IMG/VR virus record: IMGVR_UViG_3300037714_000050
Reading direction: 5' to 3' (one strand)
Origin: a virus
Length of the DNA: 59,821 nt
The position numbers and the translations under genes were made by a program. Of this stretch, positions 58,880 to 59,746 are shown piece after piece (the first letter of the stretch is position 1; each line of letters begins with the position of its first letter). The notes below the pieces were generated by a model. That model worked only from the letters and a program-made list of their open reading frames with translations, ran no database searches and was not told the DNA's origin.

Positions 58880-58958
58880 GCCACGGGTCGAAGCAACGCC
58901 GGTTATCCCAGACTGCTAATCTGATTAATGTCCGGCATCGCAATCCCACATCCGTGGT
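58880..58958 (+). ncRNA. Y RNA-like module 3: apical anticodon-arm-like hairpin
   Basis: H1 GCCAC/GUGGU and H2 GCAACGCCGG/CCGGCAUCGC. Apical hairpin CAGA-CUGCUAA-UCUG. Confidence 0.65.
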
Positions 58959-58970
58959 TACAACTGAAAA

Positions 58971-59106
58971 GTGGCGGGCCGAAGCAAATCGCTTAACGGG
59001 ACCAGGATGTTGGTGGTTCAAATCCACCTCTCCCGACTTCCCCCGGGAGGTAGCTCAATCCGGCAGAGCACCTGGATAAAGCGATCTGCACCTACATGAC
59101 CGCCAC
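58971..59106 (+). ncRNA. Y RNA-like module 4: circularly permuted tRNA-Pro(CGG)-like domain
   Basis: H1 GUGGCGG/CCGCCAC and H2 GCAAAUCGCUU/AAGCGAUCUGC. Order is CGGGA-CCAGG-AUGUU-[GGUGG UUCAAAU CCACC]-UCUCCCG-A-cuucccc-CGGGAGG-UA-[GCUC AAUCCGGCA GAGC]-A-CCUGG-AU. Confidence 0.75.
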
Positions 59107-59119
59107 GTATAACTTCATA

Positions 59120-59251
59120 GCGTCGGGTCGAAGAGATTCGCTTACCCAGACCTCTTATCTGGGTCCCATCGGCTGGCGGGCTAAACCCCGTCCGGTGAAA
59201 TGACACCCTTGGCCGTGGAACCGTCAGCGAGCCTCGCCCCATATCCGACGC
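59120..59251 (+). ncRNA. Y RNA-like module 5: large non-tRNA apical domain with anticodon-arm-like hairpin
   Basis: H1 GCGUC/GACGC and H2 GAGAUUCGCU/AGCGAGCCUC. Hairpin CCCAGA-CCUCUUA-UCUGGG. The 3' conserved block is AUAUCC. Confidence 0.6.
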
Positions 59252-59255
59252 ACCC

Positions 59256-59273
59256 CAGAAAACATGTTTTCTG
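59256..59273. promoter_or_regulatory. Palindromic motif copy 13/13 (CAGAAAACATGTTTTCTG) inside the RNA array
   Basis: Replaces the usual ACAACUGAA linker between modules 5 and 6. Its last base (59273) is the first base of the module 6 closing helix (GAGAC). Confidence 0.6.
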
Positions 59274-59371
59274 AGACGGGTCGAACGTTCTGGTTATCGT
59301 CACCACGGCAGAGATGCCACCCCCATTGCAGCGCCTGACAGCCTGCACCAGTTCGATAGCACATCCGTCTC
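59273..59371 (+). ncRNA. Y RNA-like module 6
   Basis: H1 GAGAC/GUCUC and H2 CGUUCUGG/CCAGUUCG. Apical hairpins GGCA-gaga-UGCC and UGCAG...CUGCA. Confidence 0.6.
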
Positions 59372-59385
59372 TCACAACTTGATAC

Positions 59386-59494
59386 GTAGTGGGTCGAATG
59401 AGGCCGGTTATTTGGCTACGTGGTTTCGATACCACCCTCGGCGCACGTGTGACAGCGACACCGGGAGACCCGGACTCTCCAACACATCCACTAC
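59386..59494 (+). ncRNA. Y RNA-like module 7: partial tRNA-like domain (T arm plus acceptor-like stem)
   Basis: H1 GUAGU/ACUAC and H2 GAGGCCGG/CCGGACUC. T-arm-like GUGGU-UUCGAU-ACCAC. Stem CCCUCGG/CCGGGAG. Confidence 0.6.
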
Positions 59495-59506
59495 TTACAA
59501 CTGAAC

Positions 59507-59630
59507 ATCGACGGGCCGAAGTTATCGGTTACCCATGTGCTGGCTAGGGAGATCAGCCCTCGCAAGAGGGACGGGGAGGTTCGAATCCTCCATCACATAA
59601 ACCTCCGATCTCGATCACACTTCCGTCGTT
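59507..59630 (+). ncRNA. Y RNA-like module 8: tRNA-shaped domain in non-permuted order
   Basis: H1 (AU)CGAC/GUCG(UU) and H2 AUCGG/CCGAU. AUGUG...CACAU stem, D-like GGCU...AGCC, CCCUC-GCAA-GAGGG (GNRA loop), and T arm GGAGG-UUCGAAU-CCUCC. The 5' block is GGGCCGAAG and the 3' block ACUUCC. Confidence 0.6.
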
Positions 59631-59642
59631 ACAACTGAATCT

Positions 59643-59746
59643 GTGACGGGTCGAAGCACCCCGGTTATCTTTGGTTCGACTCCAAATGCGCGCTTGCCGC
59701 GTATGGCTTGGCTTAGCCACCGGAACTGCATCCCCACATCCGTCAC
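59643..59746 (+). ncRNA. Y RNA-like module 9: permuted tRNA-like domain lacking an anticodon arm
   Basis: H1 GUGAC/GUCAC and H2 GCA..CCGG/CCGG..UGC. T arm UUUGG-UUCGACU-CCAAA. Acceptor UGCGCG/CGCGUA closed by CUUGC. D-like GGCU-UGGCUU-AGCC. Its 3' part recurs at 1-52. Confidence 0.65.

What the first reader, a model, noticed from the sequence alone, without database searches (positions are those of the whole stretch)
58880..59746. Apical cargo is modular: isolated anticodon-arm mimics, partial tRNAs, a non-permuted tRNA shape and plain hairpins
Seen in sequence. Modules 3 and 5 each carry a free 7-nt-loop hairpin that looks like an anticodon arm (CAGA-CUGCUAA-UCUG, and CCCAGA-CCUCUUA-UCUGGG). 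Module 7 has only a T-arm-like hairpin and an acceptor-like stem. Module 8 has D-like, GNRA-capped and canonical T arms in normal order, with its acceptor continuing into the stem. Module 9 has T arm, capped acceptor and D arm, with the stem replacing the anticodon arm. Modules 2 and 10 are bare stems. Inference: the array may present a panel of tRNA-like surfaces. These could act as decoys or sponges for host tRNA-targeting defences (anticodon nucleases) or tRNA-modifying enzymes, or as adaptors tethering nucleases to Ro60. Established knowledge relevant here: Y RNA tethers Ro to PNPase in Deinococcus and Salmonella.
Basis: inference. Interest (0 to 1): 0.7.

Follow-up and report, generated by a model that had tools for sequence, protein, structure and literature searches.

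The report
Ten-module phage Y RNA array
Just upstream of its Ro60 gene, this uncultured actinobacterial phage carries ten tandem Y RNA genes that share one Ro60-binding stem but have different, exchangeable tips, giving an unusually large natural panel for asking what Y RNA tips bind.

Summary
The described elements are real. The window is a complete phage genome with a 127-nt terminal repeat. The array (58653-59820) therefore runs directly into a terminator and then rsr (Ro60).

Ten modules share a GGGYCGAAG / CAYAUCC closing stem and conserved ACAACU linkers. Their apical heads differ.

- M9, M1 and M4 are YrlA-type heads (T arm, capped 7-bp acceptor, D arm).
- M8 is a non-permuted cloverleaf with a GNRA stub in place of the anticodon arm.
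- M7 is a T-like hairpin plus a capped stem.
- M2 and M10 are bare.

Compensatory changes in relatives support M7, M8 and M9.

M3's CAGA-CUGCUAA-UCUG hairpin belongs to a class found in 11-13 phage Ro60 loci with covarying stems. M5's "anticodon arm" fails: it has no U33 and its loop is 6-8 nt in relatives.

Related ~60-kb phages carry 4-10 modules. In some, the head was replaced on a kept stem, or the same head sits on a different stem.

This is an expanded variant of the known multi-Y-RNA locus of bacteria and phages. Adaptor or gating partners for phage Ro60 is the best-supported function. A decoy role against tRNA-cleaving defences remains plausible and untested, and was already proposed for YrlA.

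The parts
58615..58643 (+). Promoter-like TTGCGC-N17-TAGGTT upstream of module 1
   Evidence: Read in the sequence. The leader through GTTGTCGGTATACCTGATGGGTCGA is conserved in L001 and L057. The sigma-70 consensus scan did not call it.
58653..58788 (+). Module 1. Y stem plus V hairpin (6 bp, CACG loop), T arm GCAGG-UUCGAAU-CCUGC, 7-bp capped acceptor and D arm: YrlA-type
   Evidence: Folds (z -2.10). nhmmer finds this head in 26 phage Ro60 loci.
58800..58869 (+). Module 2. Bare Y stem, 70 nt
   Evidence: Folds. By eye it resembles the CACA-CUNNNAA-UGUG modules of relatives with a deletion.
58879..58959 (+). Module 3. Short Y RNA whose tip is CAGA-CUGCUAA-UCUG (58909-58923), an anticodon-loop-like hairpin
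   Evidence: The loop is CUGCCAA in L057. The CUGCUAA hairpin class recurs in 11-13 phage Ro60 loci with different stems.
58970..59107 (+). Module 4. Classic YrlA (T arm, capped acceptor, D arm UAGCUCAAUCCGGCAGAGCA) on a GGGCCGAAG / ACAUGACC stem
   Evidence: The only Rfam match: YrlA RF02553, 30.3 bits, E 3.5e-4, below the gathering score of 69. nhmmer gives 16 loci.
59119..59252 (+). Module 5. V hairpin CCCAGA-CCUCUUA-UCUGGG plus a three-way junction (59166-59218), not tRNA-like
   Evidence: Fold z -3.34. The consensus fold is kept in L057 and L220, with a compensated second hairpin. The head occurs in L057, L059, L220 and L221, and in reduced form on another outer stem in L228_m7.
59256..59273 (+). 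Small hairpin CAGAAAA-CAUG-UUUUCUG that replaces the usual linker between modules 5 and 6
   Evidence: Read in the sequence. Kept with a changed loop in L057.
59272..59372 (+). Module 6. Y stem plus two small hairpins (GGCA-GAGA-UGCC; UGCAG...CUGCA)
   Evidence: z -2.83. Seen by eye, the first hairpin is compensated in L059 (GGGC-CUUA-GCCC).
59385..59495 (+). Module 7. T-like hairpin GUGGU-UUCGAU-ACCAC plus a capped stem, no D arm
   Evidence: A3: 95.8% paired, 9 compensatory pairs. Relatives have a 7-bp UUCG- or GAGA-capped stem.
59507..59630 (+). Module 8. Non-permuted cloverleaf: acceptor AUGUG/CACAU, D-like arm, CCCUC-GCAA-GAGGG, T arm GGAGG-UUCGAAU-CCUCC
   Evidence: A2: 99.2% paired, 5 compensatory pairs. 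The cloverleaf is the MFE fold in L058 and L059; in WIN it is -33.1 against an MFE of -41.3 kcal/mol. No tRNA call.
59642..59747 (+). Module 9. T arm UUUGG-UUCGACU-CCAAA, 7-bp capped acceptor AUGCGCG/CGCGUAU, D arm GGCU-UGGCUU-AGCC: YrlA architecture
   Evidence: A4: 12 of 34 pairs compensatory. Fold z -3.10.
59755..59820 (+). Module 10. Bare terminal Y stem (GGGUCGGAG variant). It also appears at 61-126 because of the terminal repeat
   Evidence: z -2.60.
132..171 (+). Intrinsic-terminator-like hairpin (13 bp) plus U tract, between the array and rsr
   Evidence: An equivalent hairpin with different sequence is present in L001, L058, L059, L140, L220-L224 and L061.
184..1887 (+). rsr, the phage Ro60 gene (GTG start after GAGGAGGAA)
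   Evidence: Pfam TROVE 3e-44 and vWA_Ro60 7.6e-57. 97% identical protein P0001.

Best explanation
The region is one transcription unit of ten Y RNA genes. It runs from a promoter at 58615-58643 to a terminator at 132-171, directly upstream of the phage Ro60 gene.

Shown:
- Every module keeps the Y RNA closing stem with the GNCGAA(N)G motif.
- The modules are separated by a conserved single-stranded ACAACU(U/G) linker.
- The apical heads are independent evolutionary units that are gained, lost and exchanged between related phages.

Inferred:
- The precursor is cut in the linkers. They fit the RN|CNU preference of mycobacterial RNase E.
- Each 66-138-nt RNA binds phage Ro60 through its stem.
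- The head decides what that Ro60 particle touches.

Four heads rebuild the tRNA T-loop/D-loop elbow: M1, M4 and M9 in the permuted YrlA order, and M8 in the normal order seen in Deinococcus Yrn1. One head is a T arm plus a capped helix (M7). One is an anticodon-loop-like hairpin (M3). One is a three-way junction (M5). The others are minimal.

The most likely role is a set of alternative adaptor or gating partners. They would couple phage Ro60 to different host tRNA-binding or RNA-degrading proteins such as PNPase, rather than acting as free decoys.
For: Identity as Y RNAs:
- The motif and closing stem are present in all ten modules.
- The outer stem covaries between orthologues: 5 of 9 pairs in M7.
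- M4 has a sub-threshold YrlA hit.
- The array lies on the same strand as rsr, ending about 60 nt upstream of it. The same order is seen on an unbroken contig, L057.
- No ORF longer than 84 aa overlaps the array, and no gene is called in the intergenic stretch upstream of rsr in nine relatives.

One transcription unit: shared leader and promoter, and a conserved terminator.

Linker conservation across 13 arrays, and the RNase E motif (PMC10641625).

Head structures.

Modularity.

Every head stays attached to a Ro60-binding stem, and every array stays next to rsr. This argues that Ro60 binding is part of the function.

Established knowledge:
- Y RNA tethers Rsr to PNPase, and bacteria make two or more Y RNAs from a polycistronic precursor (PMC4201824).
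- A phage Ro60 with two Yrl RNAs and host PNPase forms a ternary complex in vitro (PMC12135203).
Against: - No expression, processing or binding data exist for this phage.
- Nine of the ten modules are invisible to the Rfam YrlA model, and M4 scores 30.3 against a gathering score of 69.
- The partners of the tRNA-like heads are unknown even for bacterial YrlA (10.1101/312249).
- The adaptor model does not explain why ten heads are needed, or why the CUGCUAA loop is so strongly kept.
- The host is unknown, so the RNase E inference rests on a different genus.
- In WIN the M8 cloverleaf is 8 kcal/mol above the computed MFE.
Confidence: 0.5

Rival explanations
1. Decoy or sponge panel. The heads mimic host tRNA parts and soak up or inhibit tRNA-targeting defence nucleases or tRNA-modifying enzymes. 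Ro60 serves only to stabilise the RNAs.
For: - M3's tip, ACUGCUAAU, has the same anticodon loop as E. coli tRNA-Ser(GCU).
- It contains ACUGC, the VapC-mt4 recognition sequence in an intact anticodon stem-loop (PMC4705866).
- VapC4 crosslinks to tRNA-Ser(GCU) without cleaving it in vivo (PMC5175351).
- The CUGCUAA hairpin is kept in 11-13 phage Ro60 loci and in none of 80 bacterial rsr loci.
- The phage encodes tRNA-Cys(GCA) and tRNA-Gln(CUG). These are the isoacceptors cut by VapC4 and VapC11 in mycobacteria, which fits the phage-tRNA evasion idea (PMC10264068).
- The genome also carries a PNKP-type end-healing domain and an Acb2/Tad1-hairpin protein 1.1 kb from rsr.
- YrlA was proposed as a competitive inhibitor of an anticodon nuclease (PMC7790460).
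Against: - Only one of the ten heads carries an anticodon-like loop. The four elbow heads lack an anticodon loop altogether, and that loop is the target of anticodon nucleases.
- A pure decoy does not need a Ro60-binding stem, yet no module lacks one.
- The host and its nucleases are unknown.
- Similar C-U-NNN-A-A/C loops occur in bacterial Y RNAs, where an anti-defence role is not expected.
- The VapC link is a sequence resemblance only.
Confidence: 0.25
2. The heads are mainly stability and processing devices. [quoted passage not shown] The number of modules sets the Y RNA dose, and differences between heads are largely neutral.
For: - M1, M4 and M9 have 7-bp capped acceptors, by my reading of the folds. 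This is the feature that makes M. smegmatis YrlA an RNase P substrate with CCA addition in vivo. Chen et al. also raised nuclease protection as a role (PMC4201824).
- Array size varies from 4 to 10 between close relatives, as expected if copies are partly redundant.
Against: - Distinct head types are each conserved with compensatory changes across phages whose Ro60 proteins are only 64-67% identical.
- The CUGCUAA loop sequence is kept while its stem changes.
- The M5 junction and the M8 cloverleaf are maintained as specific folds.
Confidence: 0.15
3. The array is chiefly a cis-acting leader of rsr. Ro60 binding to nascent modules tunes read-through of the terminator at 132-171, and so tunes its own synthesis.
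For: - I read no separate promoter in the roughly 20 nt between the terminator and the rsr ribosome-binding site, and the scan of 1-400 called none. rsr therefore seems to depend on read-through.
- A terminator hairpin at this position is present in the relatives examined.
Against: - One module would be enough for feedback.
- Ten diversified, separately conserved heads and conserved processing linkers point to trans-acting products.
- In M. smegmatis the upstream Y RNAs are processed and accumulate bound to Rsr (PMC4201824).
Confidence: 0.05

Closest known systems
YrlA/YrlB Y RNAs of Mycobacterium smegmatis, Salmonella and mycobacteriophages (Chen et al. 2014, PMC4201824; Rfam RF02553)
   Same: - GNCGAA(N)G motif in a 5'/3' closing stem, and a conserved YUAY after the stem (GGUUAY here).
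- Heads ordered V, T arm, closed acceptor stem-loop, D arm (M1, M4, M9).
- Shorter hairpin-type companions (M2, M3, M10).
- Encoded upstream of rsr on the same strand and made from one precursor.
   Different: - Ten modules, against the two Y RNAs found experimentally in each studied bacterium.
- Head types not described there: non-permuted cloverleaf, three-way junction, T arm plus capped helix.
- All modules but M4 escape the Rfam model.
Deinococcus radiodurans Yrn1 and Yrn2
   Same: - As described by Chen et al., the Yrn1 head has the D-like and T arms in the opposite order to YrlA, with the stem-loop between them in the anticodon-arm position. M8 has this arrangement.
- Yrn2, tRNA-Asp and Yrn1 come from a polycistronic transcript.
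   Different: - The middle arm of M8 is a 5-bp stem capped by a GNRA tetraloop, not a 6-nt loop.
- M8 has a separate 5-bp acceptor helix.
- No sequence homology was detected (no Rfam hit).
- M8 sits in the same array as YrlA-type heads.
Thermus phage phiLo Ro60 with Yrl1 and Yrl2 (PMC12135203)
   Same: A phage-encoded Ro60 with Y-like RNAs carrying the CGAA motif immediately upstream. In vitro it assembles with host PNPase.
   Different: Two stem-bulge-stem RNAs as described there, against ten here with diversified heads. The phage lineage and host phylum also differ.
Unannotated Y-like modules next to the Ro gene in isolated actinophages (Catera, Sparky, Sixama)
   Same: - The same 5' motif, with GGUUA after it.
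- A UAUAACUGAAAA linker in Catera.
- A CUGCUAA hairpin module in Sixama (L230:5171).
- rsr next to tRNA genes in Sparky and Sixama.
   Different: Only 2-3 tandem modules, or scattered ones. None is annotated in those records.
Phage tRNA gene clusters proposed to counter anticodon nucleases (PMC10264068)
   Same: tRNA-shaped RNAs encoded by actinophages in the same neighbourhood. A possible link to host tRNA-cleaving toxins.
   Different: The modules are not tRNAs (no ARAGORN or Rfam tRNA call). They have no free acceptor end and, except M3, no anticodon loop. All are fused to a Ro60-binding stem.

Membership tests
Bacterial/phage Y RNA (YrlA-type) | GNCGAA(N0-1)G motif near the 5' end | tested here: met
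   GGGUCGAAG, GGGUCGAAC/U or GGGCCGAAG in nine modules. M10 has GGGUCGGAG.
Bacterial/phage Y RNA (YrlA-type) | 5' and 3' ends pair into a long stem that carries the motif | tested here: met
   All ten MFE folds close with this stem. There are compensatory changes between orthologues.
Bacterial/phage Y RNA (YrlA-type) | Encoded within 4 kb of a Ro60 orthologue, on the same strand | tested here: met
   The array ends about 60 nt before rsr across the terminal repeat. The same order is seen on L057.
Bacterial/phage Y RNA (YrlA-type) | tRNA-like head in the order T arm, closed acceptor stem-loop, D arm | tested here: met
   Met for M1, M4 and M9. Not met for M2, M3, M5, M6, M7, M8 and M10.
Bacterial/phage Y RNA (YrlA-type) | Reaches the Rfam RF02553 gathering score | tested here: not met
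   M4 scores 30.3 bits against 69. No other module is listed at E up to 10.
Bacterial/phage Y RNA (YrlA-type) | Bound and stabilised by Ro60/Rsr in vivo | not testable with these tools
   Needs immunoprecipitation or CLIP in infected cells.
Yrn1-type (non-permuted) tRNA-like Y RNA head | D-like arm, then a stem-loop in the anticodon position, then a T arm, with the Y stem leaving from the acceptor side | tested here: met
   M8 structure with covariation. The comparison with Yrn1 rests on the description in PMC4201824, not on an alignment.
tRNA | Cloverleaf with 7-bp acceptor, anticodon arm with 7-nt loop, detectable by tRNA finders | tested here: not met
   ARAGORN calls no tRNA in the array. 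There is no Rfam tRNA hit at E up to 10. M8 has a 5-bp acceptor and a GNRA stub.
Anticodon stem-loop mimic | 7-nt loop with Y32, U33, R37 on a stem of about 5 bp, kept in relatives | tested here: met
   Met for M3: CUGCUAA on a 4-bp stem, CUGCCAA in L057. The class recurs with 4-6-bp covarying stems and has the same loop as E. coli tRNA-Ser(GCU). Whether any anticodon-binding protein recognises it was not tested.
Anticodon stem-loop mimic | The same criteria applied to M5 | tested here: not met
   The loop CCUCUUA has C at position 33 and U at 37. The loop is 8 nt in L057 and 6 or 4 nt in L220.

The most novel reading that the evidence does not exclude
The array is an RNA-based counter-defence panel built on a Ro60 scaffold. 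Each head imitates the part of a host tRNA, or of another RNA, that a particular defence nuclease recognises. An example is the ACUGC anticodon stem-loop read by VapC-type PIN tRNases. Ro60, alone or with PNPase, would then trap or neutralise the bound enzyme. Heads would be swapped between phages as host defences change.
Probability: 0.2. Interest if true: 0.85.

Novelty: new variant of a known kind. Interest (0 to 1): 0.6.

Why it matters
What the tRNA-like domains of bacterial Y RNAs bind is still unknown, and so is why phages carry Ro60.

This phage family offers a natural library. One Ro60-binding scaffold carries at least seven distinguishable head types, with 4-10 per genome, and heads are replaced between close relatives. 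That makes head-by-head pull-downs and deletions directly informative.

Three points add to what the papers read here describe:
- A permuted (YrlA-like) and a non-permuted (Yrn1-like) tRNA mimic coexist in one locus.
- A specific anticodon-loop-like hairpin (CUGCUAA) is conserved across unrelated phage Y RNAs.
- Most modules are missed by the current Rfam model, so Y RNAs in phage genomes are probably under-annotated.

Tried and rejected
- Rfam at gathering thresholds finds nothing in the array. At E up to 10 it finds only M4.
- megablast and blastn of the array against 50,697 phage records gave no match.
- A first detector based on a 10-mer complement produced many false closures and merged modules. 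It was refined with the 3' CAYA context and manual fixes.
- A generic detector for distant loci under-calls: it scores WIN as a chain of 6, not 10. Its counts are lower bounds.
- The M5 "anticodon arm" was rejected.
- A kissing interaction between the M3 loop (GCUAA) and the M1 acceptor cap (UUAGC) was considered. It was dropped because relatives with CUGCUAA do not keep a UUAGC partner.
- The idea that the loop triplet varies freely like real anticodons was weakened. Across loci the loops cluster as CUG-N-UAA (CUGCUAA 10, CUGUUAA 9, CUGAUAA 4).
- A strict IMG/VR scan (CGAA..GGTTA..ACTGCTAAT) returned 33 stretches, mostly chance. The five with a 5-bp stem and a GGGY prefix are all in contigs already found through Ro60, and each has a Ro60 gene nearby. 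One 3-bp hit, L258, is also next to a Ro60 gene.
- Metagenome, IMG/VR and genome scans with Ro60 gave few close relatives. The close family came from exact-protein look-ups (and 23-25, 32-41).
- No prophage or host assignment was obtained. The best bacterial Ro60 hits are 40-46% identical, most of them from Actinomycetota.
- Two reviews on bacterial Y RNAs and the supplementary tables of Chen et al. were not available.
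Full report
**Setting**

The first 127 bases of the window repeat its last 127. The window is therefore a complete, terminally redundant genome of about 59.7 kb. The array at its right end is physically followed by the left end: module 10, a terminator-like hairpin at 132-163 with a U tract, and an ORF with TROVE (3e-44) and Ro60-vWA (7.6e-57) domains. 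I place its start at GTG 184, behind GAGGAGGAA.

An unbroken JGI contig, L057, has the same order of SPFH gene, array and rsr. Its Ro60 is 97% identical.

The terminase is about 53% identical to those of Arthrobacter phages. The Ro60 is at most 46% identical to that of any isolated phage. The array has no nucleotide match among 50,697 phage records. This is an uncultured actinophage, and its host could not be named.

**Anatomy**

GGGYCGRA occurs ten times on the + strand between 58659 and 59768. Sixteen matches are expected in the whole window on both strands, which by my arithmetic is about 0.16 for this stretch.

Each occurrence is preceded by six bases that pair with six bases following a 3' CAYAUCC. 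In M4 and M8 the 3' element is ACAUGACC or ACACUUCC.

Folding each inter-motif segment gives ten hairpin-like RNAs of 66-138 nt. Each is closed by this stem, with z-scores from -1.1 to -3.3.

- Between most modules lies ACAACU(U/G)(C/A)A, in this phage and in all the relatives' arrays.
- The M5/M6 junction is instead a small hairpin.
- The last junction lacks the motif.

A TTGCGC-N17-TAGGTT element and the following leader are shared with relatives. No ORF longer than 84 aa overlaps the array. Gene callers left the same stretch empty in nine relatives.

The motif is the GNCGAA(N)G that Chen et al. defined for bacterial Y RNAs. The GGUUAY after it corresponds to their conserved YUAY (PMC4201824). 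Rfam sees only M4 as YrlA, below threshold (30.3 bits, gathering score 69, E 3.5e-4).

**The heads, module by module**

- M9 (59642-59747) is a textbook YrlA head: T arm UUUGG-UUCGACU-CCAAA, a 7-bp capped acceptor, and D arm GGCU-UGGCUU-AGCC. In five orthologues, 12 of 34 pairs show compensatory change.
- M1 and M4 have the same order. M1 has an extra V hairpin.
- M8 (59507-59630) is different. It has a 5-bp acceptor AUGUG/CACAU, a D-like arm, a 5-bp stem capped by GCAA where the anticodon arm would be, and a canonical T arm, in the normal tRNA order.
  - On four sequences, 99.2% of cells pair. Five pairs change on both sides: two in the acceptor, two in the GNRA stem (GCAA, GAAA, GAGA), one in the T arm. 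Slid controls give 35-48%.
  - The cloverleaf is the MFE fold in L058 and L059, but lies 8 kcal/mol above the MFE in this phage.
  - It is not a tRNA by ARAGORN or Rfam.
  - Six unpaired bases on each side separate it from the inner Y stem.
  - This order is the one Chen et al. describe for Deinococcus Yrn1.
- M7 is a T-like hairpin (GUGGU-UUCGAU-ACCAC, with a 6-nt loop here and canonical 7-nt loops in L058 and L059), followed by a capped stem. In most relatives that stem is 7 bp with a UUCG cap. There are 9 compensatory pairs, mostly in the Y stem.
- M6 has two small hairpins.
- M2 and M10 are bare.
- M5 carries the quoted hairpin, but its loop has no U33 and is 7, 8 and 6 nt in three phages. 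The rest of the M5 head is a three-way junction whose second hairpin is fully compensated in L057 (GGUG-AAAUGA-CACC against GGGGG-UUCG-CCCUC). It has no Rfam match.

**The M3 hairpin**

CAGA-CUGCUAA-UCUG sits right after GGUUAUCC. Its loop reads C32 U33 G C U A37 A38, the same as the anticodon loop of E. coli tRNA-Ser(GCU).

Across about 230 phage Ro60 loci, the same 7-mer occurs as a hairpin loop directly after the Y-type 5' strand in 11-13 distinct loci, on different 4-6-bp stems. These include Gordonia phage Sixama. From base composition I expect about 0.01 such cases.

The hairpin is found in two contexts:
- In short modules like M3 (L053, L032).
- As the V arm of full YrlA heads (L139, L145, L079).

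Related loops are CUGUUAA (9) and CUGAUAA (4). In 80 bacterial rsr loci, C-U-NNN-A-A/C loops occur (CUGUUAA 4, CUGUCAC 4) but CUGCUAA does not. In L057 the loop is CUGCCAA.

So the resemblance to an anticodon loop is real and the hairpin is under selection. It is a class of Y RNA V-arm or tip hairpin, not a feature peculiar to this array.

**Relatives and modularity**

Ro60 searches found a family of contigs of about 60 kb, 55-67% identical, plus three closer ones. The arrays I could read hold the following numbers of modules:

| Locus | Modules |
|---|---|
| WIN | 10 |
| L057 | 10 |
| L220 | 9 |
| L227 | 8 |
| L228 | 8 |
| L229 | 7 |
| L224 | 7 |
| L223 | 6 |
| L140 | 6 |
| L001 | 5 |
| L226 | 5 |
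| L222 | 4 |

Head distribution:
- M1- and M4-type heads are widespread (26 and 16 loci).
- M7, M9 and M5 are confined to the family.
- M6 and M8 are confined to the closest relatives.

Stem identity and head similarity are only weakly correlated (r = 0.31).
- The first module keeps an almost identical outer stem while its head is replaced (L227_m1 vs L228_m1: 0.97 and 0.16).
- The penultimate stem carries either a T/acceptor/D head or an M5-like junction (L220_m8 vs L228_m7: 0.89 and 0.11).
- The CACA-CUNNNAA-UGUG tip sits on unrelated stems (L224_m7 vs L227_m2: 0.50 and 0.79).

A generic detector, which under-calls, gives tandem chains of at most 4 in 80 bacterial loci and in nearly all other phage loci. 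Catera has three unannotated modules and Sparky has two. Ten is the largest array seen.

**What is known**

- Chen et al. found YrlA next to Ro60 in 254 bacteria and 22 phages.
- They showed that the three bacteria studied experimentally each make at least two Y RNAs, from one precursor where this was tested.
- They showed that the 7-bp acceptor of M. smegmatis YrlA is cut by RNase P and receives CCA.
- They proposed either nuclease protection or binding of tRNA-interacting factors.
- The YrlA crystal-structure paper notes that YrlA lacks an anticodon loop, and expects an elbow-binding effector.
- Phage phiLo Ro60 binds two Yrl RNAs and host PNPase.
- Hughes et al. suggested that YrlA may competitively inhibit an anticodon nuclease.

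I found no paper in the held library that describes large phage Y RNA arrays.

**Mechanism**

Shown:
- Ten Y-type modules in one promoter-to-terminator unit next to rsr.
- Conserved linkers.
- Head folds supported by covariation.
- Exchange of heads.

Inferred:
- Processing in the linkers. AA|CUU fits the RN|CNU rule of mycobacterial RNase E (PMC10641625).
- Ro60 binding through the stem.
- The heads acting as partner-specifying surfaces.

I favour the adaptor or gating reading (0.5). Every head remains fused to a Ro60-binding stem and linked to rsr, and this is the demonstrated Y RNA function.

The decoy reading (0.25) gains some support:
- ACUGC in the M3 tip is the VapC-mt4 consensus in anticodon-stem-loop context.
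- The phage's own tRNA-Cys(GCA) and tRNA-Gln(CUG) genes.
- A PNKP-type domain.
- An Acb2/Tad1-hairpin gene near rsr, here and in relatives.

Against it, only one head has an anticodon-like loop, and the host is unknown.

A stability or processing role (0.15) and a cis-regulatory leader (0.05) are less able to explain several specifically conserved head types.

**Verdict**

This is a new, expanded and diversified variant of a known system, not a new kind of system.

Noticed in passing
window 1-127 and 59695-59821: Exact 127-nt direct terminal repeat. The window is a complete phage genome, and module 10 is present at both ends.
   Followed up: yes
window 33578-33639 (+): Type II hammerhead ribozyme match above the Rfam gathering score (40.8 against 37 bits, E 6.5e-5).
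   Followed up: no
window 4199-4435 (+): Three adjacent tRNA genes, Tyr(GTA), Gln(CTG) and Cys(GCA), 2.3 kb downstream of rsr. Cys-GCA and Gln-CUG are the isoacceptors cut by VapC4 and VapC11 in mycobacteria (PMC5175351). The phage tRNA-Cys anticodon stem closes with C31, so it reads CCUGCA, not ACUGCA.
   Followed up: partly
window 3015-3521 (+): A 168-aa protein with an Acb2/Tad1 hairpin domain (E 1.5e-10), a family of anti-CBASS/anti-Thoeris sponges. Homologues lie near rsr in L220-L226.
   Followed up: partly
window 37776-38576 (+): A protein with a polynucleotide kinase-phosphatase (PNKP) HAD phosphatase domain (E 8e-30), an RNA or DNA end-healing enzyme type. No Pfam-recognisable RNA ligase was found among the 30 window ORFs scanned, and no ligase-sized ORF lies next to it.
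   Followed up: partly
window 46737-47288 (+): Rv2179c-like 3'-5' exoribonuclease domain protein (E 2.6e-11).
   Followed up: no
window 59256-59273 (+): The M5/M6 junction is a 7-bp hairpin (CAGAAAA-CAUG-UUUUCUG) instead of the ACAACU linker. It is kept in L057 with a different loop. The M9/M10 junction (CGCCUUU) also lacks the linker motif.
   Followed up: partly
L013:3878, L032:3462, L053:6996, L139:6582, L145:606, L079:2732, L073:2115, L230:5171, L220:1868, L223:2175: The hairpin loop CUGCUAA, mostly closed by an A-U pair, lies directly after GGUUA of a Y-type 5' strand in many otherwise unrelated phage Ro60 loci. It is absent from 80 bacterial rsr loci.
   Followed up: yes
L232:2030-2390 (Mycobacterium phage Catera); L231:2060-2300 (Sparky); L230:2150-2400 and 4990-5200 (Gordonia phage Sixama): Isolated actinophages have 2-3 unannotated Y-like modules beside the annotated Ro-like gene. 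In Sparky and Sixama these are mixed with tRNA genes. Catera has a UAUAACUGAAAA linker.
   Followed up: partly
L228:2238-2350 (module 7 of that array): A reduced M5-like junction head sits on the outer stem that carries the T/acceptor/D head (M9 type) in the other phages. This is a clear chimera.
   Followed up: partly
L220, L223, L224, L228: first module of each array: These first modules carry an anticodon-loop-like hairpin (CUGCUAA, CUGAAAA or CUACGAA), then a T arm and a capped acceptor, then a region where I could not recognise a typical D arm. This approaches a complete permuted tRNA on a Y stem, whereas the window's M1 has a tetraloop hairpin in that position.
   Followed up: partly
window 57706-58605 (+): An SPFH/Band 7 family gene lies immediately upstream of the array (E 1.4e-24). 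It is also present in L057.
   Followed up: no
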